64,000 bases of DNA from Bdellovibrionota bacterium. Lineage in GTDB: Bacteria; Bdellovibrionota_C; UBA2361; CAKMMH01. Positions 19,448-38,800 of this stretch are shown here, in pieces (the stretch's first letter is position 1; every line of letters starts with the position of its first letter). The notes under the pieces are model-generated. The model was not told where the DNA came from, did no database searches, and saw only the letters and a program-made list of their open reading frames with translations. The stretch lies in assembly GCA_050952645.1 (NCBI GenBank), contig JBMNLI010000017.1:288001-352000 (forward strand). The letters are read 5' to 3'. Position numbers and translations under genes: made by a program.

Positions 19448-19613
19448 GATTTACCACCTTTTCTTTTGTAATGTTATTAAAAATTAACTATTTAATAATT
19501 CTTTAATCCATAGACGTTTCTAAGATAACATTTTTAGACAAAATCTGAAACTAGTAGTTAAATGAGAGCCTACAAACTAATAACTTGCGATTTACAACGT
19601 AACCTGCCCCTTT

Positions 19614-20351: not shown

Positions 20352-20359
20352 AAGTTATA

Positions 20360-20965: not shown

Positions 20966-21323
20966 TTATAACCTAAACTCCATTACAGAATACCATCTTT
21001 AGAATATAATCTTTAGAATATAATTTTTATTTTTAAAGGCTCCTACACGTATCGCTTAAAGTAGGTTAGAAAAATTGTTTTCTTTTAGGCGTATGCCGAA
21101 GTAATACTAATTTGTCAAAGTAATGCTAATTTAAAGAGCATAAAACCTCTTTTGAACGTGAATAACTTTTTTAAAAATATAATTTTATTTTTTAAAAACA
21201 GAGACACTACTAACTTTAAATTTAGTTTAAAATTTTAGTTTAAAAAGTTTTTCGCTCTTTGCCGTATTTTGCAAGCCTATTGATTACTAACATTTGCTGC
21301 CATTAACAAGGAAAAAAGGATTT

Positions 21324-22802: not shown

Positions 22803-22823
22803 ATATCACCTTATTAAAATAAA

Positions 22824-22991
22824 AGTTCTTCACTTTTAAAAGTGGTTTTAAATTCTCAAAAAATTAGCATCACACAGGGCATCACAGATAGCACCACACT
22901 TTAAGAAGCACTTTTAAAAAAAAATTTCACAAACCTTTCTAATCCACTTTCGTAATCCGCTTTTCTAATCCACTTAAAGCGTGAAGAACTA
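22824..22991. repeat. Intergenic inverted-repeat element, family A
   Basis: agttcttcacttttaaaagtgg ... ccacttaaagcgtgaagaact; inner ctcaaaa..ttagcatcac shared with the 151-258 copy. Confidence 0.65.
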
Positions 22992-23020
22992 AAATAAATA
23001 TTACTAAACTATTTACTACT

Positions 23021-23518
23021 TTACAAATAAACAAGCTCTAAGCTATCTAGTTTTGCATCTAAAAGAGCAAAACTTCGCTCATTAGTTCTAAAGCATAGAG
23101 CCCCTGGGTTGATAACTCGTGTGTTAAATATTTTTTCATCTCTTATTTTATGTGTATGTCCACACAATACGTAATCGTAAACTTGGCTATTAAGAAGTTT
23201 TTGTGCGACTTCACCCATAATATCATGAATTACTAAAAATCTTTTATCTTCGTGCGTAAAATCATGAAATGGAGCAGGTGGAGTTTCAAAACCTAGCATT
23301 TTTGCTTTATATGTAAGCCCGATTATCTCTCCATCATTATTACCATACACGAACTTTAAAGGGAAGCCTTTAAGAATTTCTAAAATTGATGGAGCTATTA
23401 AATCACCGCAATGAACTACTAAATCGATATCTTTTCTTTTTCTTATAATGTCTGCTACGCGTTCTAGCAAAGGGTAATGATCGTGCGTATCTGATATTAT
23501 AGCTATCATAAAAAACAA
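23021..23518 (-). CDS. YfcE/MJ0936-type metallophosphoesterase
   Basis: ISDTHD, HCGD, YGNND, CGHTH, INPG. Confidence 0.92.
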   Translation of the reverse strand: MFFMIAIISDTHDHYPLLERVADIIRKRKDIDLVVHCGDLIAPSILEILKGFPLKFVYGNNDGEIIGLTYKAKMLGFETPPAPFHDFTHEDKRFLVIHDIMGEVAQKLLNSQVYDYVLCGHTHKIRDEKIFNTRVINPGALCFRTNERSFALLDAKLDSLELVYL

Positions 23519-23596: not shown

Positions 23597-24196
23597 TTAT
23601 TTAGGTGCGATTTTAGTTAATATTTCTCTTATTTGGTGTAATTTATCTATTCCTACGAACCTTTCTTTATTGATAACGAAAGTTGGGGTATCGAAAATTC
23701 CTAAATTTTTACCTCTAGTATAAATCCCTTTAACTCGTTCTCTAATATCTGGGGAAGAAAGCTTAGATACGAACTCTCCCATCTCGACATCCATCTCATC
23801 GCATAGTTCACGCCAGAATTCTTCAGTATTAGGATTTCTTTCTTGTGTCCAGCAGTAGTCAAAAACTTTAAAATTATATTCCATTAAAAAATCCATATCT
23901 TTTGCTACCATAGCACCACGAGTGATTCTAACGGGGTCGAACTCTTCTTCGGGCCAATTAGTGGGGATAGTTAATGGGATATTATGCATTTTAGCGTATC
24001 TTTTAGCATCTTCTATTATATAAGATATTTTATCGGGATTAATATTTGCTAGTGGCACTGACTGCCCTGCGGCTTTTGCAGAAAAAGGCTGCCACAAAAG
24101 CTCTACATCGTAATCTTTGTTAAGGGCGTAAATCTCATCTAGCGCCAAATGACAAAATATATTTTGAAATGAATAAAAAACTTCTATCGTTACCAT
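23597..24196 (-). CDS. DsbA-like thioredoxin fold / HCCA isomerase family protein
   Basis: IEVFYSF..FCHLA and GIFDTPTFVINKERFVGIDKL. Confidence 0.8.
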   Translation of the reverse strand: MVTIEVFYSFQNIFCHLALDEIYALNKDYDVELLWQPFSAKAAGQSVPLANINPDKISYIIEDAKRYAKMHNIPLTIPTNWPEEEFDPVRITRGAMVAKDMDFLMEYNFKVFDYCWTQERNPNTEEFWRELCDEMDVEMGEFVSKLSSPDIRERVKGIYTRGKNLGIFDTPTFVINKERFVGIDKLHQIREILTKIAPK

Positions 24197-24339
24197 AATA
24201 ATACCTTTAAAACTATAACTTAAACAATCATTTAAAGAGTTTAGCAGATCTTTCTAAATGTTAAAATATAAAAAACATTTAATTACGTTTTAAGGTGGAG
24301 GGGGTGCTCTAAGTTTTAAATATAATTTTTAAAACATAA

Positions 24340-24368
24340 TTGACTAAAAATTGCTATTTTGAGAGAAT
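24340..24368 (+). promoter_or_regulatory. Putative sigma70-type promoter repeated upstream of the lipoprotein genes
   Basis: TTGACT-N17-GAGAAT; same at ~27018, ~29912 and ~34725; variant TTGACT-N17-GAAAAT at ~31158. Confidence 0.4.
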
Positions 24369-24444: not shown

Positions 24445-25347
24445 ATGTTAAAGAATAAGCTAAAAAGCTTTGCACAAAAAGGATTTAACTTTTTACATAA
24501 AAGGTACAGAACAATGAACCGAAAATTGTATGCATTGTATGCGATTATTCTTTCGTTTGGGATTATCGGCTCTACTATCTTAACTACAGGATGCAACAAC
24601 GGCGATAAGGGAGACACTATTTCCTCCACTCCAGCAGTTCGTGAGGATAATGGAGTAGTTGAAACTACACCTCCTCAAATTCCAAACTCGGAAGAAAAGG
24701 AAAGCGACTCTCTTCAACAAAAAGAGACTAATGAAGTTGCTACCACCGATGAGCAAAACGATGAAGCGACTCCTAACATTGCTAAAAGCGAGGAAACCGC
24801 TTCGGAAGTTAGCACCAATGAGCCTATTAGCGCGGAACTTGCAGAGATTGTAAAGGCCGTAGAAGAGCAAGGCTATTGGTTTAACACCAACGCTACTAAA
24901 TTAGAAGGCTATTGGACCTACGATGGAACTAAGCCTAAAATAATAGAAAGCGATGACAGCAGGTTAGCAGTCATACTCGACTCGGAAGATGGAATTTTTG
25001 GAAGGTTCGACAACTCATTTAGGATTAACGAAGAAGAAACCTATGCTAGTATTTTCGTATGGATAAACACGAACGACAAATCATTAGCAAGGGGAGCTTC
25101 AATACTTGAGGAATTAGCGAATAGTCCTAGGAAAAAAGCATTATATTCCATTGACGCTTGCTCACTTTATAAAAAAGTGGCATACGAACAATATGAACTT
25201 AAAAGTGGAATAACGTTTTGGAATATAAATACGTATTGCTCAGATCCAACTAAGGAATGTTTCTACGCAAAATATCCGATCGTTGTATATTTGCTTGATC
25301 GGCAGGGTGAACATAAACGATGCTTTGCCATGCTTGACTTAAAATAA
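24445..25347 (+). CDS. Lipoprotein, locus family copy L1 (likely start ATG 24514)
   Basis: Signal peptide with lipobox LTTGC, acidic linker, domain with GYW / FVWINTN motifs. Confidence 0.8.
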   Translation: MLKNKLKSFAQKGFNFLHKRYRTMNRKLYALYAIILSFGIIGSTILTTGCNNGDKGDTISSTPAVREDNGVVETTPPQIPNSEEKESDSLQQKETNEVATTDEQNDEATPNIAKSEETASEVSTNEPISAELAEIVKAVEEQGYWFNTNATKLEGYWTYDGTKPKIIESDDSRLAVILDSEDGIFGRFDNSFRINEEETYASIFVWINTNDKSLARGASILEELANSPRKKALYSIDACSLYKKVAYEQYELKSGITFWNINTYCSDPTKECFYAKYPIVVYLLDRQGEHKRCFAMLDLK

Positions 25348-25353
25348 GCGCTT

Positions 25354-25404
25354 AAGATAGAGACACAGGCGTAAAGAGACACGCCTTCCGTCTCTATCTT
25401 TTTT
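25354..25404. terminator. Hairpin terminator between convergent lipoprotein and Cys-rich genes
   Basis: aagatagagac..aggcgt/acgcct..gtctctatctt followed by a T-tract; repeated at ~28070-28120 and ~35777-35827. Confidence 0.75.
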
Positions 25405-25410
25405 ATTTTA

Positions 25411-26997
25411 TCAACTAAAACTATTAGTGCTATAATCTGATGTATTAGTGCTTTCATTACTTTCAAAACTTTGCGATGAAAATAAGGAAGTTGATGAAAC
25501 GCTTTCTGTTAAAGATGAACTGCTACTACTAGCTCCACATACCCAATATCTCGTATTAGGATCTTGCCTCCATAAATCTTCCTTACAACACATATAAACA
25601 GCATGAGGCTGATGACTTTCTCGTATAAAACCTATTTGTCCCATAGTTTCTCCATTATTTCGACACTGAGCTGGGTAATAACACCATAAATCGCCTTGGG
25701 CATTCGTATAAGTTGAACCCTGCGGACAACAACGAGTTATTTGATTTCCATAAGCATCGCTTCTAATAATAGGTATCTCTCTTGAATCGCAACAATCATT
25801 GCACGGCTCTTCACATCCCCCATTAAAAGGCACTTTCCCATCTTCGCAACAACGACTTATATCAGGATTGGCACATTTGCCATTATCACAGCACGGCTCA
25901 TCTCCACACGGCACAGGATCTTCGTTAGGGCAACAAGTATTTAATTTGCATTTACCCATTTCGCAACATTCGATTTCACCACAAGGACTACCACCATTTG
26001 GACAAGAAGTAGGTGTAGGTGTTAGAGTTTTAGTAGGCGTATTTGTTGGCACCGTCGGCGTATTAGTAGGAGTATTCGTTGGCACCGTTGGTGTATTAGT
26101 AGGAGTTACGGTAGGCGTATCCGTTGGTATCAACGTTGCTGTGTTTGTAAGTGTGGCTGTAGGCGTATCCGTTGGTATCGGCGTTGCTGTATTGGTAGGT
26201 GTATTGATTACAACACTCTCTTTTATGCAATTATATACGATATAAATATCCTCTCCTTCTTCTTGTACTTCTATACTACACGTTTCGCCATCCTCGCAAC
26301 ATAAATGCCCACACTGCCTATCAGAAGGACACGCTAAAGAAGCACTAGATAAACTTTCACTGCTAAACGTCTCAGAAGAAAAACTAAACGAGCTTTTACT
26401 CACTTTCTCACAACTAGGAATCGGGATAATCTCACCGTCTGCATTTTCTTGTAAATACGTTTTACACTCCCTCCCCTCTTCACAACAAAGATAACCACAC
26501 TGCCTCTCAGGAGGACACGCTGAAGAAAAACTAAAAGAGCTTTCACTAGATAAACTACTCTCCGAAGAGCTTTCACTTTCCGATGAGCTTTCACTTGAAA
26601 AAGAAGAAAAACTTTCACTTATAATAACTGGCGGTAAAGATGATGCTGAAGAACTTTGAGTATCACACCACCAAGCAACAACATTTCCAAGCCCATCGGT
26701 CATATAACGACACATTCCTTTCTTACAACATAAGCCAAAACAAAAATCTTCATCTGGTTTACAACCCCCAACTGGCACGCTCGAAGTGGAATCTTCACTT
26801 TCACTAGAAAAACTACTACTAGATGGATTTACTGGCGGTAGTGGTGGCTTCTTACTACTACTACTAGACGAACTACTAGAATAAGAACTAGTGCTAGGCG
26901 ACGTAATAGGAGGCTCTGGTGGCAAGCTACTTAAACTACTACTAGAAGACGAACTCTTACTAGAGCTAATTGCTAAAAATAATCGCTTCACAAACAT
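25411..26997 (-). CDS. 5'-truncated Ser/Cys-rich cassette C1 (copy of the C-terminal half of 35835-39158), with a Thr-Pro linker
   Basis: Near-identical blocks to the full gene from SSLPPEPPITSPST onward; no prepilin or signal N-terminus; no clear SD. Confidence 0.75.
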   Translation of the reverse strand: MFVKRLFLAISSSKSSSSSSSLSSLPPEPPITSPSTSSYSSSSSSSSSKKPPLPPVNPSSSSFSSESEDSTSSVPVGGCKPDEDFCFGLCCKKGMCRYMTDGLGNVVAWWCDTQSSSASSLPPVIISESFSSFSSESSSESESSSESSLSSESSFSFSSACPPERQCGYLCCEEGRECKTYLQENADGEIIPIPSCEKVSKSSFSFSSETFSSESLSSASLACPSDRQCGHLCCEDGETCSIEVQEEGEDIYIVYNCIKESVVINTPTNTATPIPTDTPTATLTNTATLIPTDTPTVTPTNTPTVPTNTPTNTPTVPTNTPTKTLTPTPTSCPNGGSPCGEIECCEMGKCKLNTCCPNEDPVPCGDEPCCDNGKCANPDISRCCEDGKVPFNGGCEEPCNDCCDSREIPIIRSDAYGNQITRCCPQGSTYTNAQGDLWCYYPAQCRNNGETMGQIGFIRESHQPHAVYMCCKEDLWRQDPNTRYWVCGASSSSSSLTESVSSTSLFSSQSFESNESTNTSDYSTNSFS

Positions 26998-27122
26998 CGA
27001 ATAATTTTTAAATATAATTGACTAAAAATTGCTATTTTGAGAGAATGAAAAGACTAGATGCTTTTTAAAAAGCACGACGAAAGGTTATTTTTGTGTATTA
27101 AATCTTTGCATAGATTGTCTTT

Positions 27123-28061
27123 ATGTTAAAGAATAAGCTAAAAAGCTTTGCACAAAAAGGATTTAACTTTTTACATAAAAGGTACAGAACAATGAACCGA
27201 AAATTGTATGCATTGTATGCGATTATTCTTTCGTTTGGGATTATCGGCTCTACTATCTTAACTACAGGATGCAACAACGGCGATAAGGGAGACACTATTT
27301 CCTCCACTCCAGCAGTTCGTGAGGATAATGGAGTAGTTGAAACTACACCTCCTCAAATTCCAAACTCGGAAGAAAAGGAAAGCGACTCTCTTCAACAAAA
27401 AGAGACTAATGAAGTTGCTACCACCGATGAGCAAAACGATGAAGCGACTCCTAACATTGCTAAAAGCGAGGAAACCGCTTCGGAAGTTAGCACCAATGAG
27501 CCTATTAGCGCGGAACTTGCAGAGATTGTAAAGGCCGTAGAAGAGCAAGGCTATTGGTTTAACACCAACGCTACTAAATTAGAAGGCTATTGGACCTACG
27601 ATGGAACTAAGCCTAAAATAATAGAAAGCGATGACAGCAGGTTAGCAGTCATACTCGACTCGGAAGATGGGATTTTTGGAAGGTTTTCCAACCGATTTAG
27701 GATTAACGAAGAAAAAACCTATCCTGATGTTTTTGTATGGATAAACACGAACAATAAACCATTAGCAAGGGGAGCTTCAATACTCGAGGAATTAGCGAAT
27801 AGTCCTTGGAACGAAGTATTATATCCCATCGACGCTTGCTCACTTTATAAAAAAGTGGCATACGAACAGTATGAACTTAAAAACGGAATAACGTTTTGGA
27901 ATATAAATACGTATTGCTCAGACCCAACCAAGGAATGTTTTTATTCAAAATATCCAATCATTGTATATTTTCATGATTGGAAGAAGAAGAAAAAGCAAAC
28001 AAAACAAACAGGACAAACAAACTGCTTTGGCATGTTAAACTTAGTTAGCTTAGAAGAATAA
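27123..28061 (+). CDS. Lipoprotein, locus family copy L2
   Basis: First ~185 aa identical to L1, C-terminal part divergent. Confidence 0.8.
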   Translation: MLKNKLKSFAQKGFNFLHKRYRTMNRKLYALYAIILSFGIIGSTILTTGCNNGDKGDTISSTPAVREDNGVVETTPPQIPNSEEKESDSLQQKETNEVATTDEQNDEATPNIAKSEETASEVSTNEPISAELAEIVKAVEEQGYWFNTNATKLEGYWTYDGTKPKIIESDDSRLAVILDSEDGIFGRFSNRFRINEEKTYPDVFVWINTNNKPLARGASILEELANSPWNEVLYPIDACSLYKKVAYEQYELKNGITFWNINTYCSDPTKECFYSKYPIIVYFHDWKKKKKQTKQTGQTNCFGMLNLVSLEE

Positions 28062-28127
28062 GCGCTTTATAGATAGAGACACAGGCGTAAAAAGACACGC
28101 CTGCCCGTCTCTATCTTTTTTATTTTA

Positions 28128-29891
28128 TCAACTAAAACTACTAGTGCTATAATCTGATGTATTAGTGCTTTTATTACTTTCAAAACTTTGCGATGAAAAT
28201 AAGGAAGTCGAAGAAACGCTTTCTGCTAAAGATGAACTGCTACTACTAGCTCCACATACCCAATATCTCGTATTAGGATCTTGCCTCCATAAATCTTCCT
28301 TACAACACATATAAACAGCATGAGGCTGATGACTTTCTCGTATAAAACCTATTTGTCCCATAGTTTCTCCATTATTTCGACACGTAGCTGGGTTATCACA
28401 CCATAAATCGCCTTGGGCATTCGTATAAGTTGAACCCTGCGGACAACAACGAGTTATTTGATTTCCATAAGCATCTCTTCTAATAATAGATATCTCTCTT
28501 GAATCGCAACAATCATTGCACGGCTCTTCACATCCCCCATTAAAAGGCACTTGCCAATCTTGGCAACAGAGACTTTCATCAGGATTAGCGCATTTACCAT
28601 TATCACAACACGGTTTATCTCCACACGGCACAGGATCTTCATTAGGGCAGCAAGTATCAGAATTACATTTATTTGGGTCGCAACAAACGTCTCCACACAT
28701 TTCTGTACCTTCACTGCATGAAGAAGAACTGCTACTACTAAAACTAGATGACGAGCTAGAAGAACTGCTTGAACTACTTGGAGATGATGAACTAGAAGAA
28801 GAGCTACTTAAACTAGATGAACTAGGTGAGCTACTCTTACTCGAACTAGAACTTAAAGAGCTAGAAGAATTGCTTTTACTAGAACTACTAGAAGAACTAG
28901 ACGAACTGCTACTACTAGGTGATAATGAACTAGAAGAAGAGCTACTTAAACTAGATGAACTAGGTGAGCTACTCTTACTCGAACTAGAACTTAAAGAGCT
29001 AGAAGAATTGCTTAAACTACTACTTTCTAAGCTTTCGCTCGAAGCTACACTTTCTAAAGAACTCTCACTAGAACTTACACTCTCTTTTATACAATTATAT
29101 ACGATATAAATATCTTCTCCTTCTTCTTGTACTTCTATACTACACGTTTCGCCATCCTCGCAACATAAATGCCCACACTGCCTTTCGGTAGGACACGCTA
29201 AAGAAGCACTAGACAAACTTTCACTGCTTAACGTCTCAGAAGAAAAACTAGATGAGCTTTCACTCACTTTCTCACAACTAGGAATCGGAATAATCTCGCC
29301 GTCTGCATTTTCTTGTAAATACGTTTTACACTCCTCCCCCTCTTCACAACAAAGATAATCACACTGCCTCTCAGGAGGACACGCCGAAGAAAAACTAAAA
29401 GAGCTTTCACTTTCACTCGATAAAACACTTTCAGACGAACTTTCCGAAGAACTCTCACTAGATAAACTACTTTCTGATGAGCTTTCACTCGAGAAAGAAG
29501 AAAAACTTTCACTTATAATAACTGGTGGCAAAGATGATGCTGAAGAACTTTGAGTATCACACCACCAAGCAATAACATTTCCAAGCCCATCGGTCATATA
29601 ACGACACATTCCTTTCTTACAACATAAGCCAAAACAAAAATCTTCATCTGGTTTACAACCCCCAACTGGCACGCTCGAAGTGGAATCTTCACTTTCACTA
29701 GAAAAACTACTACTAGATGGATTTACTGGCGGTAGTGGTGGCTTCTTACTACTACTACTAGACGAACTACTAGAATAAGAACTAGTGCTAGGCGACGTAA
29801 TAGGAGGCTCTGGTGGCAAGCTACTTAAACTACTACTAGAAGACGAACTCTTACTAGAGCTAATTGCTAAAAATAATCGCTTCACAAACAT
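28128..29891 (-). CDS. 5'-truncated Ser/Cys-rich cassette C2
   Basis: Same 5' junction (MFVKRLFLAISSSK) as C1 and C3; Ser linker and Cys blocks shared with the full gene. Confidence 0.75.
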   Translation of the reverse strand: MFVKRLFLAISSSKSSSSSSSLSSLPPEPPITSPSTSSYSSSSSSSSSKKPPLPPVNPSSSSFSSESEDSTSSVPVGGCKPDEDFCFGLCCKKGMCRYMTDGLGNVIAWWCDTQSSSASSLPPVIISESFSSFSSESSSESSLSSESSSESSSESVLSSESESSFSFSSACPPERQCDYLCCEEGEECKTYLQENADGEIIPIPSCEKVSESSSSFSSETLSSESLSSASLACPTERQCGHLCCEDGETCSIEVQEEGEDIYIVYNCIKESVSSSESSLESVASSESLESSSLSNSSSSLSSSSSKSSSPSSSSLSSSSSSSLSPSSSSSSSSSSSSSKSNSSSSLSSSSSKSSSPSSSSLSSSSSSSSSPSSSSSSSSSSSSFSSSSSSSCSEGTEMCGDVCCDPNKCNSDTCCPNEDPVPCGDKPCCDNGKCANPDESLCCQDWQVPFNGGCEEPCNDCCDSREISIIRRDAYGNQITRCCPQGSTYTNAQGDLWCDNPATCRNNGETMGQIGFIRESHQPHAVYMCCKEDLWRQDPNTRYWVCGASSSSSSLAESVSSTSLFSSQSFESNKSTNTSDYSTSSFS

Positions 29892-30190
29892 CGAATAATT
29901 TTTAAATATAATTGACTAAAAATTGCTATTTTGAGAGAATGAAAAGAAGTGTCTTAGAAAAGTTTCTTTAAGGCACACTAATTGTTTGAAATCGAAGTTT
30001 TTAAATTTTTAGAAGCTTTGATACGTATTTTTGCGTAGGATTTGCAATATATTTAAAAATAATCTTAAAAAATATTATTGTAATCTAACGCAAAACCTTA
30101 TATAGAACGGTTTTGTATAAGGTTTATATAGAGCGTTCCAAAGATATTCTTAAATATGTTTTACATGTTTGATAACTAGAAAGAAAGAAA

Positions 30191-30904
30191 ATGAATAAGT
30201 TCTCTGTCGTGTCAGCCTTGTTTGTCGTTTCCCTTTGCTTGCTTCTTGGAGGTTGCAAAGAAAAATCACCTAATGATACGAACAAGGAAGCACAGCAAAG
30301 TGTACCTACTGCTTCTGCTCCTGAAGTCAAGAAGCCTCTTTTTAACGAAGGCGATAAGGGAAAAACTGGCGACCCTGAACTCGATAGGATTATCGATGCG
30401 GTTGTAAGTAATGGCTACTACTTTGATATTGAGGCTATCCCCGAGCTTCATGGTCGTGAAAAACCATCAAAAATAACTAGTGGTAGCTCAGCTTTTCGAA
30501 TACTTGATGAAAAGCCAGAAGATTTGGGAGTTTTTTGTGAAACCTCTTGCGCTTTTCAGTTCGATGGTGAATATCGTTTAAGTGGCGTTTGGACCTTCGT
30601 CTGGGCTAATACTAATCAAATACCCTTAATTGAAGGACTAGAAGAAGCTTTACTGCTTCCTAAATTTTTGCATGAAAGGATGCAAAGATTTAGTTATAGA
30701 GATAGGGGAGGCAATCCTGGCGATTTCATCAACAATCACGTCGAAATTCCGCTAGAAGGTGGAATGACCATTGAAAACACTTGGGGAGGGGCTGGCGAAG
30801 CGAAAGAATCTTACCCCCACAAGGAAGTTGTGCGAGTTTTTGTGATTTATAATCACAAATTAAGAAAGATTGTCGGCGTATTTATCGCAAGAGAAGGGAG
30901 CTGA
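30191..30904 (+). CDS. Lipoprotein, divergent family member L3
   Basis: Lipobox LLGGC; ELDRIIDAVVSNGYYF, KPSKIT, LGVF, FVWANTNQIPL align with L1/L2 motifs. Confidence 0.75.
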   Translation: MNKFSVVSALFVVSLCLLLGGCKEKSPNDTNKEAQQSVPTASAPEVKKPLFNEGDKGKTGDPELDRIIDAVVSNGYYFDIEAIPELHGREKPSKITSGSSAFRILDEKPEDLGVFCETSCAFQFDGEYRLSGVWTFVWANTNQIPLIEGLEEALLLPKFLHERMQRFSYRDRGGNPGDFINNHVEIPLEGGMTIENTWGGAGEAKESYPHKEVVRVFVIYNHKLRKIVGVFIAREGS

Positions 30905-30991
30905 TACGCTCAAAAGCTCCTAGCGCTAATTAACGGCAAATGCTGACACCGATAACGCTTTATTAGTTTTAGTCTGTTAACAGACGCTATT

Positions 30992-31030
30992 TAAGAGAGG
31001 TCGAAAAACATCGATCTCTCTTTTATTTTT
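30992..31030 (+). terminator. Intrinsic terminator after L3
   Basis: aagagaggtcga..tcgatctctctt followed by a T-rich tail. Confidence 0.6.
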
Positions 31031-31352
31031 TCTTTACATCTTAAAAAAACTACCCTCTTAAGTCCTTATCAATTATCCAAAAAACACTTTTACAAATTAT
31101 TTATATATTTTCATTAAAAAAATACTACAGTTTTTACCTTAGAACTCGCAAAATAAATTGACTAATAATTATTATTTTGAGAAAATATTTATAAGTCTTT
31201 AGGTTGTATAATTAGGTTGTATAACTTTAAGGATTTTGGTTTTAAGGCGTATGTTTATGATGCAAAAAATAAACTTTTGCAAAGAAAGAATTTTCTATAT
31301 AGACTATGCCTGTTTTAACACTAAATTAACCTGTAAATCGAGGGATAATAAG

Positions 31353-32165
31353 ATGAAAAAAAGGTTTAACAATCTCACTATGTGCGTGATGATTATTGCT
31401 CTGGTTGCCATCAGCTTGGTAGGATGTGATGGCAAAAAACAAGGCGATGTTAATGGCGAACCTAAAGGAGACGCAATCGTTGCTACCAAAAATGCTCTAG
31501 ATATTGTGCCTCAAGAAAACGAGACGTTGCCTTCCGTTGCTTCTCCTAAAGAAGAAACTTCTAATGTGGCAAATGTTGAGACGCCGATTGCCGAAGCTAA
31601 CGTGGTACAGGATACTCAGCCACAAGCAGGCCAGCAAATTGAGCTTAAGGAAGAGCCAAAAGAAGATGCTTCTGCCGACGATAAACTTCTTACCGAGATT
31701 ATCGATGCGCTTGAAAGCAAAGGCTACTGGCTTAAGGAAGGAATTGAAAAGCCTAAGCGGATAACGTGTTCTACATCAGAAGTCGGTATTATCAAATCTC
31801 CAGAAGGTCTCGGCATCTTTGGTGAACATTATGGAGGCTTTAACTTTGATGGGGAAGCTGTAAAAACAACAGCACCATTTGTTTGGCTAAATAATAATAA
31901 ACAGCCACTTAAAGTTGGTTTTGCCAAACTTTACGATTATGCGACTAACGGTGGTGAAGAGATTGACAAAATCGACGCAACTCTATTTATGCCACTTGGT
32001 TTGGAAGTTACGCTAAAAGGAAATATAACTTATTTAGATTTTAGAGAAAGCTTTAAGCCATTTACGCCCAAATATGAAGAAGACTTTTATAGTAATCAAA
32101 GAGTTTTTCTTTGCGTAAATTGGAAGGAAGGCAATCAGCCAGTTGCTGCGTTTATGACTAAGTAA
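31353..32165 (+). CDS. Lipoprotein, divergent family member L4 (ORF track starts at 31236)
   Basis: MKKRFNNLTMC..LVGC lipobox after a gaggga SD; LTEIIDALESKGYWL, KPKRIT, LGIFG, FVWLNNNKQPL. Confidence 0.75.
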   Translation: MKKRFNNLTMCVMIIALVAISLVGCDGKKQGDVNGEPKGDAIVATKNALDIVPQENETLPSVASPKEETSNVANVETPIAEANVVQDTQPQAGQQIELKEEPKEDASADDKLLTEIIDALESKGYWLKEGIEKPKRITCSTSEVGIIKSPEGLGIFGEHYGGFNFDGEAVKTTAPFVWLNNNKQPLKVGFAKLYDYATNGGEEIDKIDATLFMPLGLEVTLKGNITYLDFRESFKPFTPKYEEDFYSNQRVFLCVNWKEGNQPVAAFMTK

Positions 32166-32319
32166 AGAAAAATAACTTAACAAATTAAGAACGCACGTAT
32201 ATAAGAGCATCTCATATTCTAAATAGAATATTTTATAAGCGAAGAAAATAATCTCAAGTATTGCTTTCTTCGCTTTTTCTTTATAAAAAGCCTTAAAAAG
32301 TAAAGAACACTACTTTTAT

Positions 32320-34704
32320 TTATCCATTTGAAGAAGGAACGCACATCATTACTGGTTTACATTCTCCATTTCCGTGTTCTCTGTGATAGCAACTATCTTT
32401 TAGGCAATTTGTGCTACAATGCTCAGCATCGTATGGTCGTCTCTGTAATATTTTTCCCTCTTTGCAAGTTGTAACACAACGATAGTTAATAAGATCAACT
32501 TCCGCATCGTCGCCATTAGGCTTGCAGCAAATATATTTTCCATTTTGAAATGACACTTCTTCAGTATAGTAATTATTACAACAACCATTAGTACAACCTT
32601 TTGGTTTACAACTCCAGCCTCCTTCAATTTGAATCGGTTCTTCCCCTTCTGACTTATTACAACACCTTTGACCATCACCAGTACAATATCCATCATCACA
32701 ACACCCCTTGCCACAAGCAGAACTGCCTTCATCGCAACACGTTGTTCCATCACCAGATAGTCGTTCATCTGGGCAACAAAAAGTGCCATTGTTTGTAGGA
32801 GTAGTGCCAAGCGCGCAACAAGATTGAACTCCTTCCACAGTTATAATTTGACTATTTTCACAACATTCTTTAGTTTCAGTGCCAATGCAAGTAGAAGTTT
32901 CTGTATTACAACACTCATTTTGGCAAAAAGTTTGATTAGCTTCGCAACAAGCTTTAGTATTTGGATTATAATCTAATCCTTCACAGCAAACTTTAACACT
33001 GTCTCCATGACAATCATTTTCATTGCAGCAAGTTTCACCACACGGTTTTTTACCATCTTCGCAACATTTATCATTTATACAATTTGTGCTTTCGCAACAT
33101 TTACCGTCACAAAAAGTTTCATTAGATTCGCAACAAGCTTTAGTATTTGGATTATAATCTAACCCTTCACAGCAAACTTTAACACTGCCACCATGACAAT
33201 CATTTTCATTGCAACAAGTTTCGCCACACGGCTTTTTACCATCTTCGCAGCATTTACCATTTATACAATTTGCGCTTTCGCAACATTTACCGTCACAAAA
33301 AGTTTGATTAGCTTCGCAACAAGCTTGAGTATTCGGATTATAATCTACTCCATTACAGCAAAGTTTATTATCGTTATGACAATTTGATGCATCACAACAA
33401 ATTCCCCCACATATATTTTGATCAGTCTCGCAACATTTCTTTTCCTTAGAACTATACTCTACCAAAAGGCTACAGCAAGTTTTCCCATCATGGCAAGCAG
33501 ATGTTTCGGTATTGCAACATGTGCTTCCGCATACAATATCTTTTTCTCCAGAGCAACACGTGCCTTCTGCGCATTTTGTTTCATCACAACATTCTTCTCC
33601 GCAAAGTATTTGCCCCGTGTCATCACAACATTCAGTATTATTTAGACACTGACCTTCTGGGCAACACCACTCTCCACATAGTGTGCCATCTCTATCTTCG
33701 CAACAGCCAAATGTATCAGCACCACTTGCGCAGCATCTAGTTTCGAGAATAGTTTCATCAACATTTTTATTATCACAACATGCTCCATCTATCAAAGTAG
33801 TGCCTTCAGAACAAGATAAAGTAGAAGAAGCAGATTCTTCACTGCTCTTACTTTCTAAACTACTACTTTCTAAGCTTTCGCTCGAAGCTACACTTTCTAA
33901 AGAGCTCTCACTAGCACTTACACTCTCTTTTATGCAATTATATACGATATAAATATCCTCTCCTTCTTCTTGTACTTCTATACTACACGTTTCGCTATCC
34001 TCGCAACATAAATGCCCACACTGCCTATCAGAAGGACACGCTAAAGAAGCACTAGATAAACTTTCACTGCTAAACGTCTCAGAAGAAAAACTAAACGAGC
34101 TTTTACTCACTTTCTCACAACTAGGAATCGGGATAATCTCACCGTCTGCATTTTCTTGTAAATACGTTTTACACTCCCTCCCCTCTTCACAACAAAGATA
34201 ACCACACTGCCTCTCAGGAGGACACGCTGAAGAAAAACTAAAAGAGCTTTCACTAGATAAACTACTCTCCGAAGAGCTTTCACTTTCCGATGAGCTTTCA
34301 CTTGAAAAAGAAGAAAAACTTTCACTTATAATAACTGGCGGTAAAGATGATGCTGAAGAACTTTGAGTATCACACCACCAAGCAACAACATTTCCAAGCC
34401 CATCGGTCATATAACGACACATTCCTTTCTTACAACATAAGCCAAAACAAAAATCTTCATCTGGTTTACAACCCCCAACTGGCACGCTCGAAGTGGAATC
34501 TTCACTTTCACTAGAAAAACTACTACTAGATGGATTTACTGGCGGTAGTGGTGGCTTCTTACTACTACTAGACGAAAAACTACTATAATAAGAACTAGTG
34601 CTAGGCGACGTAATAGGAGGCTCTGGTGGCAAGCTACTTAAATTACTACTAGAAGACGAACTCTTACTAGAGCTAATTGCTAAAAATAATCGCTTCACAA
34701 ACAT
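32320..34704 (-). CDS. 5'-truncated Ser/Cys-rich cassette C3 with a long, distinct CC-repeat tip
   Basis: First ~280 aa shared with C1, C2 and the full gene, then many CC-x-C repeats including a 186-bp internal tandem repeat; unique C-terminus. Confidence 0.75.
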   Translation of the reverse strand: MFVKRLFLAISSSKSSSSSSNLSSLPPEPPITSPSTSSYYSSFSSSSSKKPPLPPVNPSSSSFSSESEDSTSSVPVGGCKPDEDFCFGLCCKKGMCRYMTDGLGNVVAWWCDTQSSSASSLPPVIISESFSSFSSESSSESESSSESSLSSESSFSFSSACPPERQCGYLCCEEGRECKTYLQENADGEIIPIPSCEKVSKSSFSFSSETFSSESLSSASLACPSDRQCGHLCCEDSETCSIEVQEEGEDIYIVYNCIKESVSASESSLESVASSESLESSSLESKSSEESASSTLSCSEGTTLIDGACCDNKNVDETILETRCCASGADTFGCCEDRDGTLCGEWCCPEGQCLNNTECCDDTGQILCGEECCDETKCAEGTCCSGEKDIVCGSTCCNTETSACHDGKTCCSLLVEYSSKEKKCCETDQNICGGICCDASNCHNDNKLCCNGVDYNPNTQACCEANQTFCDGKCCESANCINGKCCEDGKKPCGETCCNENDCHGGSVKVCCEGLDYNPNTKACCESNETFCDGKCCESTNCINDKCCEDGKKPCGETCCNENDCHGDSVKVCCEGLDYNPNTKACCEANQTFCQNECCNTETSTCIGTETKECCENSQIITVEGVQSCCALGTTPTNNGTFCCPDERLSGDGTTCCDEGSSACGKGCCDDGYCTGDGQRCCNKSEGEEPIQIEGGWSCKPKGCTNGCCNNYYTEEVSFQNGKYICCKPNGDDAEVDLINYRCVTTCKEGKILQRRPYDAEHCSTNCLKDSCYHREHGNGECKPVMMCVPSSNG

Positions 34705-34829
34705 CGAATAATTTTTAAATATAATTGACTAAAAATTGCTATTTTGAGAGAATGAAAAGACTAGATGCTTTTTAAAAAGCACGACGAAAGGTTATTTTTG
34801 TGTATTAAATCTTTGCATAGATTGTCTTT

Positions 34830-35768
34830 ATGTTAAAGAATAAGCTAAAAAGCTTTGCACAAAAAGGATTTAACTTTTTACATAAAAGGTACAGAACAAT
34901 GAACCGACAATTGTATGCATTGTATGCGATTATTCTTTCGTTTGGGATTATCGGCTCTACTATCTTAACTACAGGATGCAACAACGGCGATAAGGGAGAC
35001 ACTATTTCCTCCACTCGAGCAGTTCGTGAGGATAATGGAGTAGTTGAAACTACACCTCCTCAAATTCCAAACTCGGAAGAAAAGGAAAGCGACTCTCTTC
35101 AACAAAAAGAGACTAATGAAGTTGCTACCACCGATGAGCAAAACGATGAAGCGACTCCTAACATTGCTAAAAGCGAGGAAACCGCTTCGGAAGTTAGCAC
35201 CAATGAGCCTATTAGCGCGGAACTTGCAGAGATTGTAAAGGCCGTAGAAGAGCAAGGCTATTGGTTTAACACCAACGCTACTAAATTAGAAGGCTATTGG
35301 ACCTACGATGGAACTAAGCCTAAAATAATAGAAAGCGATGACAGCAGGTTAGCAGTCATACTCGACTCGGAAGATGGGATTTTTGGAAGGTTTTCCAACC
35401 GATTTAGGATTAACGAAGAAAAAACCTATCCTGATGTTTTTGTATGGATAAACACGAACAATAAACCATTAGCAAGGGGAGCTTCAATACTCGAGGAATT
35501 AGCGAATAGTCCTTGGAACGAAGTATTATATCCCATCGACGCTTGCTCACTTTATAAAAAAGTGGCATACGAACAGTATGAACTTAAAAACGGAATAACG
35601 TTTTGGAATATAAATACGTATTGCTCAGACCCAACCAAGGAATGTTTTTATTCAAAATATCCAATCATTGTATATTTTCATGATTGGAAGAAGAAGAAAA
35701 AGCAAACAAAACAAACAGGACAAACAAACTGCTTTGGCATGTTAAACTTAGTTAGCTTAGAAGAATAA
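34830..35768 (+). CDS. Lipoprotein, locus family copy L5 (nearly identical to L2)
   Basis: Differs from L2 by K->Q and P->R only in the translations provided. Confidence 0.8.
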   Translation: MLKNKLKSFAQKGFNFLHKRYRTMNRQLYALYAIILSFGIIGSTILTTGCNNGDKGDTISSTRAVREDNGVVETTPPQIPNSEEKESDSLQQKETNEVATTDEQNDEATPNIAKSEETASEVSTNEPISAELAEIVKAVEEQGYWFNTNATKLEGYWTYDGTKPKIIESDDSRLAVILDSEDGIFGRFSNRFRINEEKTYPDVFVWINTNNKPLARGASILEELANSPWNEVLYPIDACSLYKKVAYEQYELKNGITFWNINTYCSDPTKECFYSKYPIIVYFHDWKKKKKQTKQTGQTNCFGMLNLVSLEE

Positions 35769-35834: not shown

Positions 35835-38800
35835 TCAACTAAAACTACTAGTGCTATAATCTGATGTATTAGTGCTTTTATTACTTTCAAAACTTTGCGA
35901 TGAAAATAAGGAAGTCGAAGAAACGCTTTCTGCTAAAGATGAACTGCTACTACTAGCTCCACATACCCAATATCCCGAACTAAGATCTTGCCACCATAAA
36001 TCTTCCTTACAACACATATAAACCTTATGTGGAGAATGGCTTTCTTGTATAAAACCTATTTGTCTCATAGTTTCTCCATTATTTTGACACTTAGCTGGGT
36101 TATCACACCATAAATTACCTTGAGCATTGGTATAAGTTGAACCCTGTGGACAACAACGAGTTATTTGATTTCCATAAGCATCTCTTCTAATAATAGATAT
36201 CTCTCTTGAATCGCAACAATCATTGCACGGCTCTTCACATCCCCCATTAAAAGGCACTTGCCAATCTTGGCAACAGAGACTTTCATCAGGATTAGCGCAT
36301 TTACCATTATCACAACACGGTTTATCTCCACACGGCACAGGATCTTCATTAGGGCAGCAAGTATCAGAATTACATTTATTTGGGTCGCAACAAACGTCTC
36401 CACACATTTCTGTACCTTCACTGCATGAAGAAGAACTGCTACTACTAAAACTAGATGACGAGCTAGAAGAACTGCTTGAACTACTTGGAGATGATGAACT
36501 AGAAGAAGAGCTACTTAAACTAGATGAACTAGGTGAGCTACTCTTACTCGAACTAGAACTTAAAGAGCTAGAAGAATTGCTTAAACTACTACTTTCTAAG
36601 CTTTCGCTCGAAGCTACACTTTCTAAAGAACTCTCACTAGAACTTACACTCTCTTTTATACAATTATATACGATATAAATATCCTCGCCTTCTTCTTGTA
36701 CTTCTATACTACACGTTTCGCTATCCTCGCAACATAAATGCCCACACTGCCTATCAGAAGGACACGCTAAAGAAGCACTAGATAAACTTTCACTGCTAAA
36801 CGTCTCAGAAGAAAAACTAGACGAGCTTTTACTCACTTTCTCACAACTAGGAATCGGGATAATCTCACCGTCTGCATTTTCTTGTAAATACGTTTTACAC
36901 TCCTCCCCCTCTTCACAACAAAGATAATCACACTGCCTCCAAGGAGGACACGCTGAAGAAAAACTAAAAGAGCTTTCACTTTCTGATGAGCTTTCACTCG
37001 AGAAAGAAGAAAAACTTTCACTTATAATTACTGGCGGTAAAGATGATGCTGAAGAACTTTGAGTATCACACCACCTTGCAGTAACAGAACCATTGACAAT
37101 GGTAAAGCGACAAGTCCCTATCGGACAACATAACCCCTCAAAACAAACTTCCGTATTTGGAGGGCAAACTTCTTGAGGCGTGCTCGAAGTGGAATCTTCA
37201 CTTTCACTAGAAAAACTACTACTAGATGGATTTACTGGCGGTAGTGGTGGCTTCTTACTACTACTAGACGAACTACTAGAATAAGAACTAGTGCTAGGCG
37301 ACGTAATAGGAGGCTCTGGTGGCAAGCTACTTAAATTACTAGAAGAAGAACTACTACTAGGCGACAAACTGCTTTTACTTGATGCACTTGGCAAGCTACT
37401 CTTACTACTTAAAGAACTAGAAGAACTGCTACTTGGCGAACTACTCTTGCTCGAACTGCTTTTGCTAAATGATGATGAACTCTTACTTGATGAACTACTA
37501 CTAGGTGATAAGCTTGAACTTAGAGAACTAGAAAAGCTAGATAAAGAACTCTTACTAAAACTACTACTACTTAATGAACTCCTCGAACTGCTACTTAGCG
37601 AAGAACTAGAACTTAAAAAACTAGAAGAACTGCTTTTACTAGATGAACGTGATAAGCTACTTTTACTTGAACTCGAACTGCTAATACTTGGTGATGAACT
37701 TGAACTTAAAGAACTGCTAAAACTACTTGTTGATGCACTGCTGCTACTACTAGACGAGGAACTCTCGCTAGATGAGCTACTACTTGGTGAAGAACTCTTG
37801 CTTGAAGATGAACTCTTACTAGAAGAGCTTGATGAGCTACTACTTGGTGAAGAACTCTTGTTTGAAGATGAACTCTTACTAGAAGAGCTTGATGAACTAC
37901 TACTACTAGGCGATAAGCTTGAACTTAGAAAACTAGAAGAACTACTACTAGATGAAGAACTAGAACTACTAGACGAACTAGACAAACTGCTACTACTTGG
38001 CGATAAGTTTGAACTTACAGAACTAGAAGAACTTGGCGAACTACTCTTGCTAGAGCTTTTGCTACTAGATGATGAACTTGAAGGTGAACTTAAAGATGAG
38101 CTAGAACTACTAAAACTACTACTACTTAATGAACTAGACGAACTGTTCTTACTACTAGAAGAAGAACTAGAACTTAAAGATGAGCTAGAACTACTTAAAC
38201 TGCTACTGCTAGAAGAACTTAGAGATGAGCTGCTACTAATAGATGCACTGCTACTAGATAAACTACTGCTACTACTAGACGATGAACTGCTAGATGATGA
38301 ACTACTACTAGACGAACTCCCCTTAGGTGAACTAGATGTATCGAAAATTTGCGCAGTCCTAAAAAAACCTACATGAAACGAATCTGCTATGAGAGGCTCA
38401 TCATCTAACAACTTAAATATATCTAATATTATACCAGACTTAATAAAAATCTTCCCTCCCTTCATTGTCCTAAGTTTTATCGTCTCACTTTCTTTATCAA
38501 CGGGAGCAAAATCTAAATATTCTTCCTTCTTCCACAAACTCCCTGGAAGTTTAGTAGTCTTTATACTATCATTATCTAATTTTATACCAGGAATTAAAAT
38601 AGCATACTTAGCTATACACGGCTCCCCTTTTAACTCAAAATATTTAAAGCCTAGTTGCTTAGGTGTCGCCACCTTTTTCGATAATGCTAAATTATAAGCC
38701 GTAATCCAAAATTTACATATAGTAGGACAATCTTTAGATAGAGCTTGCACCTCTGGCACTTCGCATACTTCATCTATTTCACTTCGAGTTTTCCCCCTTA

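What the first reader, a model, noticed from the sequence alone, without database searches (positions are those of the whole stretch)
24445..35768. Five-member lipoprotein family interleaved tail-to-tail with the Cys-rich genes
Seen: L1, L2 and L5 are close copies. L3 (30191) and L4 (31353) are distant but share ordered motifs: E/R-I-I/V-x-A-V/L-xxxGYW/Y, KPxxI, GIFG/GVF and FVWxNxNxxPL. The cassette with a wholly different tip (C3) faces the divergent L4, while tips of the shared type face L1, L2 and L5. L3 has no partner. Inference: cognate partner proteins (immunity, chaperone or self-receptor), with L3 an orphan. Caveat: C2 and the full gene differ in tip residues yet have near-identical partners, so pairing is at family level, not residue level.
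Basis: partly seen in the sequence, partly recalled or inferred. Interest (0 to 1): 0.7.

Follow-up and report, generated by a model that had tools for sequence, protein, structure and literature searches.

The report
Lipoprotein partners of swappable pilus-like tips
An uncultured Bdellovibrionota bacterium carries a private family of lipoprotein genes, each sitting end-to-end with one interchangeable cysteine-rich tip of a giant pilin-like surface protein and predicted to bind it, probably as a protective or handling partner.

Summary
The five ORFs are true paralogues (BLASTP 9e-8 to 2e-14) with signal peptide and lipobox. The genome holds 9 members. The family is tiny: 15 of 1.84 billion cluster representatives, and 2 of 124 genomes of the phylum.

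Six of the 9 lie tail-to-tail, 63-154 nt apart, with a Ser/Cys-rich gene, cassette or remnant. Two more sit beside such a copy and one is alone. The single member in a sister genome also faces a Cys-rich ORF.

Each L gene looks autonomous. A 31-nt promoter-like box occurs 7 times in the genome, always upstream of L genes, and a strong hairpin plus U-run follows the three L genes I folded.

The facing genes form a mosaic family of 12 or more loci with a TadE-like N-terminus, shown in relatives. Only the window's copy looks intact. Other tip types are followed by a second, unrelated secreted family.

A complex model of L2 with its tip scored 0.61, against 0.00 for the best control.

Best reading: cognate tip-binding partners, probably protective. 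No function is shown. The kind is a new variant of cassette-plus-partner systems.

The parts
24338..24368 (+). L-box 1: 31-nt promoter-like box (TTGACT-17-GAGAAT) upstream of L1
   Evidence: exact copy, one of only 7 in the 1.95-Mb genome, all upstream of L genes
24445..25347 (+). L1 lipoprotein (probable start 24514; 277 aa from there)
   Evidence: hairpin plus U-run terminator in the gap 25348-25410
25411..26997 (-). C1: 5'-truncated Ser/Thr/Cys-rich cassette with tip A (84% identical to C2's tip)
   Evidence: its start MFVKRLFLAI lies 18 nt from the next L-box on the other strand (ATG 26997, box 27016-27046)
27016..27046 (+). L-box 2
27123..28061 (+). L2 lipoprotein (probable start 27192)
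   Evidence: AF2 model of the domain, pLDDT 81.5; complex model; terminator hairpin 28071-28115, z -5.8
28128..29891 (-). C2: 5'-truncated cassette; tip A at 28251-28718
29910..29940 (+). L-box 3, 250 nt upstream of L3
30191..30904 (+). L3 lipoprotein (237 aa), co-directional with L4; terminator-like hairpin at 30993-31022
31156..31186 (+). L-box 4 (4 mismatches)
31353..32165 (+). L4 lipoprotein (270 aa)
32320..34704 (-). C3: 5'-truncated cassette with the unique 498-aa tip B (32320-33813), including a 186-nt tandem repeat at 32909-33280
34723..34753 (+). L-box 5
34830..35768 (+). L5 lipoprotein (probable start 34899); domain identical to L2
35835..39158 (-). Full-length Ser/Cys-rich gene (1107 aa): N-terminal domain with G-x4-E motif, poly-Ser stalk, three small Cys knots, tip A (35958-36425), Ser-rich tail
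   Evidence: the only copy with the N-terminus in frame and the whole ORF open

Best explanation
The L proteins are lipid-anchored proteins made of a signal peptide with lipobox, a disordered tether of variable length (up to about 80 aa), and an alpha/beta domain of about 170 aa. I read them as cognate binding partners of the cysteine-rich C-terminal 'tip' modules of a polymorphic family of giant, TadE-like, pilin-type surface proteins.

The window holds the one apparently intact expression gene (35835-39158). Downstream of it lie three promoter-less, 5'-truncated tip cassettes. Each tip's 3' end abuts its own L gene.

Every L gene is an autonomous unit with a private promoter-like box. The three I folded (L1, L2, L4) also have an intrinsic terminator. 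All L's would therefore be made whichever tip is in use.

I think the most likely role is protective. The L protein would bind and neutralise the matching tip, either the cell's own in the envelope or a sibling's pilus tip. This is analogous to immunity proteins of polymorphic toxin cassettes and to the Tpf factor that binds the VirB5 pilus tip.

Shown: paralogy, lipoprotein signals, geometry, the private box and terminators, lineage restriction, mosaic recombination.
Predicted only: binding.
Inferred: the protective role, expression, and pilus display of the tips.
For: 1. Linkage survives deep divergence. Six of 9 L genes in G000 lie convergent, 63-154 nt from a Ser/Cys-rich 3' end. Two more are tandem neighbours of such a copy. 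L lineages only 17-33% identical keep the position, and so does the single member in sister genome G001. A strain with roughly 3-5% differences in another metagenome keeps L3-L4-C3 on one contig (X4 record 25).
2. Partner type tracks the terminal module. All 12 family loci with a 3' end that I inspected are followed at once by a secreted partner: 6 by L (convergent) and 6 by an unrelated family P (co-directional). The C14 copy carries an internal tip A but a terminal Z module, and it has P, not L.
3. The complex model of tip A (156 aa) with the L2 domain (182 aa) scored 0.38, 0.71 and 0.61 (median 0.61). The best of 3 controls scored 0.00. That mark was reached by 116 of 157 solved complexes and 2 of 215 mismatched pairs. 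The runs share at least 70% of contacts and partner pLDDT is at least 73. Neither protein has a known family, so a pass from memory is unlikely.
4. Autonomy favours protection over co-expression. The 31-nt box occurs exactly 7 times in 1.95 Mb, at up to 5 mismatches, always upstream of L genes. Hairpin plus U-run terminators follow L1, L2 and L4 (z -6.5, -5.8, -3.2).
5. L genes stay intact beside cassettes that have no room for a promoter and beside a remnant that has lost its tip (C6). dN/dS is 0.48-0.58.
6. Precedents from papers: immunity genes downstream on the opposite strand (PMC5358913, passage read); standalone cassettes in polymorphic toxin systems (PMC3482391, abstract in a search listing); Tpf binding the VirB5 tip to stop fratricide (bioRxiv 10.64898/2026.05.09.723464, abstract read); interchangeable disulfide-rich Tad minor-pilin tips in predation (PMC12075869, abstract and sections 8 and 16 read).
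Against: - No experiment and no expression data exist.
- Much of the adjacency among L1, L2, L5 and C6L is explained by co-duplication of a 2.7-kb unit.
- Fine-scale co-variation is absent. L2 and L5 are identical while their tips differ at 12 residues, 4 of them in the predicted interface.
- Paralogue differences are not enriched at the predicted interface (Fisher p 0.21-0.30).
- AlphaFold2 models the tip alone poorly (pLDDT 59.6, pTM 0.31), so the interface rests on one method and shallow alignments of 5 and 9 rows.
- One L (C10:145664-146302) has no Cys-rich neighbour. The C14 copy carries tip A without an L.
- No toxin or enzyme domain is recognisable in any tip.
- The window's own N-terminus fails Pfam TadE.
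- The +2 residue after the lipobox Cys varies (N, K, D, S), so localisation is open.
- Contexts of the nine outside relatives are unknown.
Confidence: 0.45

Rival explanations
1. Tip-specific assembly factor. The L protein is a periplasmic, lipid-tethered chaperone or holder. It binds the disulfide-rich tip while it folds, or before it is loaded on the pilus or secretion machine. This would resemble phage tail-fibre assembly proteins, which travel with fibre tips (recalled knowledge).
For: It shares the linkage and complex-model evidence of the main reading. The long disordered tether would let the domain reach across the periplasm. Different tip classes have different partner families, as fibre tips have different chaperones.
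Against: L genes are convergent, with their own box and terminator, rather than co-transcribed with the tip. They are kept intact next to promoter-less cassettes and next to a remnant without any tip. Five or more near-redundant chaperones for one expressed tip seem wasteful.
Confidence: 0.25
2. Passenger gene. L is an ordinary envelope lipoprotein of unrelated function. It happened to lie next to the ancestral gene and was copied along with the 3' part of that gene by segmental duplication. At most it also serves as 3' homology for recombination between units.
For: L1, L2, L5 and their facing tips form one 2.7-kb repeat with 87-100% identical blocks. There is no residue-level co-variation. 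One member stands alone.
Against: L lineages 17-33% identical still face Cys-rich 3' ends, in two genomes. The second tip class has its own partner family at the equivalent place. The complex model passed with controls at 0.00.
Confidence: 0.17
3. Serpin-like inhibitor. The L domain is a cut-down serpin-type fold that inhibits a protease or protects the Ser-rich stalk and tip from proteolysis.
For: In the fold search that aligns every representative chain, the top 21 rows are all serpins (Z 6.7-4.1, 138-152 residues aligned, rmsd 3.4-4.9). The next unrelated row has Z 3.1.
Against: Z stays under 8, which the tool says is common for unrelated models. Foldseek found nothing at E <= 0.001. There is no Pfam serpin hit. 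The domain is about 170-180 aa against 350-400 for the serpin chains matched. No reactive-centre loop is evident, though I did not look for one residue by residue.
Confidence: 0.04

Closest known systems
Polymorphic toxin systems with orphan toxin-immunity cassettes (CdiA-CT/CdiI, Rhs; PMC3482391, abstract seen in a search listing; the rest recalled)
   Same: A conserved N-terminal part, a long repetitive stalk and a variable C-terminal module. 5'-truncated standalone cassettes lie downstream of the full gene. A small partner gene comes right after each variable end and is kept even next to silent copies.
   Different: No toxin domain is recognisable. The tips are disulfide-rich all-beta modules. 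The L partner is a lipoprotein on the opposite strand with its own promoter box. The carrier has a TadE-like, pilin-type N-terminus, not a T5SS, T6SS or Rhs scaffold.
Immunity genes of modular bacteriocins, encoded downstream on the opposite strand (PMC5358913, Introduction passage read; the colicin details are recalled)
   Same: The partner is convergent, tail-to-tail and independently transcribed immediately after the variable killing end.
   Different: Those immunity proteins are integral membrane or cytoplasmic proteins of known families. L is a new lipoprotein family, and the facing gene is not a bacteriocin.
Tpf (XAC2611, DUF4189), which binds the VirB5 pilus-tip subunit and blocks X-T4SS fratricide (bioRxiv 10.64898/2026.05.09.723464, abstract read)
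   Same: An envelope protein encoded beside the weapon that binds the pilus tip and protects siblings. This is the role I favour for L.
   Different: There is no sequence relationship: no Pfam hit for L. Tpf is one conserved protein rather than a battery matched to swappable tips. It belongs to a T4SS, not a Tad-type system.
Interchangeable minor-pilin 'Tip' complexes of the Myxococcus Kil Tad pilus (PMC12075869; abstract and sections 8 and 16 read)
   Same: TadE/F/G-like proteins with a prepilin-type N-terminus, variable distal domains and many predicted disulfides. Several alternative tips occur per genome in predatory lineages.
   Different: Kil tips are heterotrimers encoded by kilLMN clusters. 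That paper's main text does not contain the words 'lipoprotein' or 'immunity' (0 hits each), and the parts I read (abstract, sections 8 and 16) describe no poly-Ser stalks or truncated cassettes. Here a single giant protein carries stalk and tip.
Neisseria pilE/pilS-type antigenic variation (recalled)
   Same: One intact expression gene plus several promoter-less partial copies that share flanking homology, with mosaic sequence blocks.
   Different: No pilS-like partner genes are known there. No recombinant joints were seen here.

Membership tests
Bacterial lipoprotein (SPase II substrate) | Basic n-region, hydrophobic h-region and a lipobox ending in Cys within about the first 40 residues | tested here: met
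   10 of 10 members of G000 and G001 fit, and 16 of 20 with outside relatives. The regex is recalled from the PROSITE lipobox rule. Of the 4 misses, P0010 looks N-terminally truncated, P0013 and P0015 have near-lipoboxes (CTSC, FVGC), and P0007 has none.
Bacterial lipoprotein (SPase II substrate) | Actual lipidation and final membrane (inner, outer or surface) | not testable with these tools
   The +2 residue varies (N, K, D, S). No localisation predictor or experiment was available.
Serpin (PF00079) | Sequence match to the serpin profile | tested here: not met
   Pfam scans of L proteins at E <= 1 to 10 gave no serpin hit.
Serpin (PF00079) | Full serpin fold of about 350-400 residues with a reactive-centre loop | tested here: inconclusive
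   The top 21 rows are serpins, but Z is only 6.7-4.1 and the domain is about 170-180 aa. Foldseek found nothing at E <= 0.001.
Polymorphic toxin / immunity with orphan cassettes | Shared N-terminal and stalk regions with alternative C-terminal modules | tested here: met
   terminal modules A, A2, B, X, Y and Z sit on a common N-terminal domain, stalk and knots.
Polymorphic toxin / immunity with orphan cassettes | 5'-truncated standalone cassettes downstream of a full-length gene | tested here: met
   C1-C3 share one truncation point (MFVKRLFLAISSSK) and lie downstream of the full gene on the - strand.
Polymorphic toxin / immunity with orphan cassettes | A small partner gene directly after every variable end | tested here: met
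   12 of 12 loci inspected have one: 6 L (convergent) and 6 P (co-directional). The convergent orientation is atypical.
Polymorphic toxin / immunity with orphan cassettes | The C-terminal module is a toxin and the partner neutralises it | not testable with these tools
   No toxin family was found in the tips. Binding is only modelled.
TadE-like pseudopilin / Tad minor pilin | Pfam TadE (PF07811) N-terminal match | tested here: not met
   The window's own gene gives no hit and is not among the 3 genome matches. Its homologues G001:C43 (E 2.5e-39 to the window's N-terminus) and G003:C14 do hit above the cut-off (26.3 and 23.1 bits against 22.9). The lineage is therefore TadE-like while this copy is degenerate.
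TadE-like pseudopilin / Tad minor pilin | Prepilin-type G-x4-E motif before a hydrophobic helix | tested here: met
   The sequence reads ...SRG/SILTEMAIVCFYYFALTWVV.... The motif definition is recalled.
TadE-like pseudopilin / Tad minor pilin | Tad machinery present in the genome | tested here: met
   Flp pilin x2, TadE x2 above cut-off, prepilin peptidase x1. The secretin, ATPase and platform proteins were not searched.
Tpf (DUF4189) protection factor | Homology to DUF4189 | tested here: not met
   No Pfam family at all for any L.
pilE/pilS-type cassette variation | Recombinants between cassettes and the expression locus seen in populations | tested here: inconclusive
   Mosaic identity blocks between units. 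Laid contigs of 4 runs gave only short-sided joints in Ser-rich repeats.

The most novel reading that the evidence does not exclude
A predatory-lineage bacterium displays swappable, disulfide-rich tips on a Tad-type pilus protein. It switches tips by recombination with silent cassettes. It also constitutively makes a battery of lipoproteins, one for each tip in its repertoire, that bind those tips and so mark 'self'. Clone-mates that have switched tips would then not attack or stick to each other. This would be a pilus-tip analogue of toxin-immunity pairing and a genetic basis for self/non-self discrimination in Bdellovibrionota.
Probability: 0.25. Interest if true: 0.85.

Novelty: new variant of a known kind. 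Interest (0 to 1): 0.68.

Why it matters
How contact-dependent predators and pilus-armed bacteria avoid harming their own kin is largely open. The first tip-binding protection factor (Tpf) was described only in a 2026 preprint.

This locus offers a compact, testable system. It has one expression gene, three silent tip cassettes and five autonomous partner genes of a new fold family, with a predicted interface to mutate. If the partners are protective, the cassette-plus-immunity logic of polymorphic toxins would extend to pilus tips. If they are chaperones, this would be a new class of tip-specific assembly factors for disulfide-rich adhesins.

Either way it adds two unnamed protein families (L and P) and a private promoter box.

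Tried and rejected
- Sequence family searches for L found nothing. Pfam gave only sub-threshold hits (Lipoprotein_16 at E about 0.05). NCBIfam matched only the signal peptide. The PDB sequence profile gave one hit at E 0.58. The ESM Atlas gave unnamed 'lipoprotein' clusters at scores of 0.79 or less (after two unanswered tries).
- Foldseek against the PDB gave 0 matches at E <= 0.001.
The narrower alignment A7 found only 2 true metagenome loci, on contigs of 2.4 and 2.8 kb that are too short to show the far side, plus the known G001 locus. The other hits (L024, L025, L027, L028) match 26 residues only, and I treat them as chance.
- The listing of cluster members gave no names for P0007-P0015.
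- The N-terminal domain searched against longer proteins found nothing (weak evidence, as the tool says).
- The AF2 model of the tip alone is too poor (pLDDT 59.6) for a fold search.
- The test for enrichment of paralogue differences at the predicted interface was negative (p 0.21-0.30). One charge swap looks compensatory: tip L50R and Q56K with L S59D, and tip E48I with L R61S. It is an anecdote, not evidence.
- No RNA holder was listed among 14 runs. Contigs of 4 runs gave no trustworthy recombinant joint.
- The DsbA-like neighbour (23597-24196) has no obvious signal peptide in its N-terminal sequence. I dropped it as a helper.
- Literature searches found no description of this family or arrangement.

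Full report
**What is there**

The window lies in a 1.95-Mb, 31% G+C draft genome (17 contigs, 93.75% complete). Its nearest held relative is titled 'MAG: Bdellovibrionota bacterium'.

Between a DsbA-like gene (23597-24196) and an unknown ORF upstream of mnmE and yidC, the region 24.3-39.2 kb is a repeat array. Five + strand ORFs (L1-L5) alternate with four - strand Ser/Cys-rich ORFs: C1 (528 aa), C2 (587 aa), C3 (794 aa) and a full-length gene of 1107 aa.

**The L family is real**

- L2 and L5 are identical in the globular domain, and L1 is 84% identical to them.
- L3 and L4 are 24-32% identical to the rest. They are still significantly related: BLASTP gives 2e-14, 1e-13 and 9e-8.
- Each protein has a basic n-region, a hydrophobic core and a lipobox cysteine. 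All 10 members of G000 and G001 pass the check.
- A low-complexity E/T/P/N/Q-rich tether of variable length follows, up to about 80 aa, and then a domain of about 170 aa.
- AlphaFold2 models that domain with mean pLDDT 81.5 and pTM 0.83, as an N-terminal helix, a beta-meander, a second helix and further strands.

**The family is larger in this genome and tiny elsewhere**

A profile of the five finds 9 copies in the genome (E 9.5e-91 to 9.7e-19). The four extra copies are C6:25876-26763, C7:40692-41525, C7:41837-42517 and C10:145664-146302.

Among reference genomes it occurs in:
- 2 of 41 relatives,
- 2 of 91 genomes of the order,
- 2 of 124 genomes of the phylum.

In each case the two are G000 and its congener G001.

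A 9-row profile read against 1,835,955,588 cluster representatives found only 15 proteins at E <= 0.001. Nine of them are outside relatives of 198-252 aa, and most have lipoboxes.

No Pfam, NCBIfam or PDB-sequence family matches. Foldseek finds nothing at E <= 0.001. The exhaustive aligner lists serpins in its top 21 rows, but only at Z 6.7-4.1 for a domain half a serpin's size. I take that as a shared sheet-and-helix arrangement, not membership.

**What the L genes face**

The - strand genes belong to a mosaic family. The full gene has five parts:
- an N-terminal domain of about 275 aa, with ...RG/SILTEMAIV... before a hydrophobic helix;
- a poly-Ser stalk of about 500 aa;
- three small Cys knots;
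- a Ser/Thr/Pro linker;
- a 156-aa Cys-rich tip A followed by a Ser-rich tail.

Pfam does not recognise the window's own N-terminus. Its homologues in G001 (E 2.5e-39) and G003 do hit TadE (PF07811) above the cut-off. The genome also encodes Flp pilins, TadE proteins and a prepilin peptidase. The N-terminal domain is itself confined to this bacterial family: 3 of 91 genomes of the order.

C1-C3 all begin at the same point inside the stalk (MFVKRLFLAISSSK). That is 18 nt from the next L gene's promoter-like box on the other strand (ATG 26997, box 27016-27046), so they have no evident promoter or secretion signal.

Across the genome the family has 12 or more loci. An alignment of seven 5' ends shows that five copies carry an extra base just after the G-x4-E motif. 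That throws the N-terminus out of frame. A sixth copy has several stops. The window's gene therefore appears to be the only intact one.

**Linkage**

The gaps between each L stop codon and the facing stop codon are:

| Pair | Gap (nt) |
|---|---|
| L1 / C1 | 63 |
| L2 / C2 | 66 |
| L4 / C3 | 154 |
| L5 / full gene | 66 |
| C6 L / remnant with only the Ser tail | 65 |
| C7aL / 1156-aa C7 gene | 89 |

L3 and C7bL are the upstream members of two-gene L tandems. The C10 copy is alone.

In G001 the single member (21% identical to L2) again faces a Cys/Thr-rich ORF, 544 nt away. The two metagenome relatives lie on contigs that end too soon to tell.

Tips of other types (X, Y, Z) are followed co-directionally by a second secreted family, P. 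Its members are related to each other (1e-6 to 1e-174) but do not match the L profile. P has 13 matches in G000 and none in G001-G003.

All 12 loci with a 3' end that I inspected have a partner gene of one family or the other. The C14 copy has an internal tip A but a terminal Z module, and it carries P. The partner therefore follows the terminal module.

**L genes are autonomous units**

A 31-nt box (TTGACT, 17 nt, GAGAAT, with TG) lies upstream of L1, L2, L3, L4 (4 mismatches), L5, C6L and C7bL. It occurs nowhere else in the genome at up to 5 mismatches: 7 of 7 hits. This box is better conserved than the coding sequences it precedes.

The L1/C1 and L2/C2 gaps fold into a 17-18-bp hairpin followed by a U-run (z -6.5 and -5.8). 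L4 is followed by a different hairpin plus U-run (z -3.2).

**Evolution**

The units are mosaics. U2 and U5 are 100% identical through L and into the tip, except for a block of about 180 nt at 87-90%. U1 differs in the 3' half of L and in the 5' part of the tip. dN/dS is 0.44-0.58 for both L genes and tips. That indicates constraint, not decay and not strong diversification.

**Binding**

A complex model of tip A of C2 (5-row alignment) with the L2 domain (9-row alignment) scored 0.38, 0.71 and 0.61. The three controls scored 0.00. That mark was reached by 116 of 157 solved complexes and 2 of 215 mismatches. The runs agree in at least 70% of contacts and partner pLDDT is at least 73.

This supports binding but does not show it, for two reasons:
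- AF2 models the tip alone poorly.
- Differences between paralogues are not enriched at the interface.

**Reading**

The most economical account is a cassette system. One expressed pilin-like protein has a tip that can be exchanged with stored alternatives, and each alternative travels with a gene for a protein that binds it.

The L genes have their own uniform promoter box. They sit on the opposite strand. They stay intact beside silent cassettes and beside a tipless remnant. For these reasons I favour a protective, immunity-like or anti-fratricide role (about 0.45 with the binding claim) over a co-expressed chaperone (0.25) or a mere passenger (0.17).

Four literature parallels:
- opposite-strand immunity genes of modular bacteriocins (PMC5358913, passage read);
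- standalone cassettes of polymorphic toxins (PMC3482391, abstract in a search listing);
- the VirB5-binding protection factor Tpf (bioRxiv 10.64898/2026.05.09.723464, abstract read);
- interchangeable, disulfide-rich Tad minor-pilin tips in Myxococcus predation (PMC12075869; abstract and sections 8 and 16 read; 'immunity' and 'lipoprotein' each occur 0 times).

**Other data**

The stretch 30000-34700 is held by 13 DNA runs from 12 studies, labelled anaerobic digester, bioreactor, wastewater or landfill metagenomes. I laid only X1-X4, so shares in the other runs are unchecked. In X4, a strain with roughly 3-5% differences keeps L3, L4 and the end of C3 on one contig.

**Limits**

- There are no expression, localisation or binding data.
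- The contexts of the outside relatives are missing.
- Kin genomes are few and not independent.
- The genome is a draft assembled across long repeats.

Noticed in passing
window 38950-39160 (-), and G000 C10:335722, C10:198258, C12:88725, C7:162008, C6:22743, C17:124553: Five of seven aligned 5' ends of the Ser/Cys-rich family carry one extra base just after the G-x4-E motif (ACAGAAACAGGCT against ACAGAGAT-GGCT). This puts the first ~51 codons out of frame. A sixth copy has several stops. Only the window's gene looks intact, which suggests one expression locus plus silent copies.
   Followed up: partly
G000 C10:193351-194274, C10:330961-331917, C10:329460-330326, C12:90851-91714, C17:119503-120375, C14:22830-23411, C10:25835-26641: A second unnamed secreted family ('P', 190-320 aa) follows the other tip types (X, Y, Z) co-directionally. 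It has no Pfam match, 13 matches in G000 and none in G001-G003.
   Followed up: partly
G000 C6:22743-25810: One family copy is split by an ORF of 433 aa that looks like a group II intron reverse transcriptase/maturase (judged from its sequence by recall, not scanned). It has lost all Cys-rich parts, yet its facing L gene is intact. An almost identical ORF lies at C17:116604-117824.
   Followed up: no
window 45135-47186 (+): A protein O-mannosyltransferase (PMT and PMT_4TMC) fused to an NPCBM/NEW2 domain lies 6 kb from the array. It is a candidate glycosylase for the poly-Ser stalks.
   Followed up: no
window 25411-25530, 28128-28250, 35835-35957 (-); G000 C6:25690-25810: A conserved C-terminal tail of about 40 aa (…SVSSTSLFSSQSFESN.STNTSDYST.SFS) ends every A-type copy and the tipless C6 remnant. 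It could be a sorting or recombination signal. C3 lacks it.
   Followed up: no
window 25799-26245, 28516-29109, 36223-36678, 37291-38376 (+): Long Leu/Glu-rich or Gly/Val-rich ORFs lie antisense to the Ser/Thr-rich repeats. They are mirror-frame artefacts of the repeat composition, not genes.
   Followed up: no
G000 C14:16098-18681 (-) and 19240-23500: A 5'-truncated family copy sits next to four ORFs with pseudopilin-like N-termini, resembling GspG to GspJ. The call rests on their N-terminal sequences by recall, not on a scan. The flank (fabV, nth, kpsF) is syntenic with the G001 L locus but carries a P gene where G001 has L. The fabV there appears split into two ORFs.
   Followed up: partly
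L022:1405-2208 (+): In one metagenome contig the L relative is followed co-directionally by another lipoprotein of 267 aa with a similar '...KEKGYYIDPK...' helix motif. It may be a very distant paralogue. I did not test this.
   Followed up: no
window 32909-33280: A 186-nt tandem duplication (90% identical) inside tip B of C3 encodes two 62-aa Cys-rich repeats.
   Followed up: no
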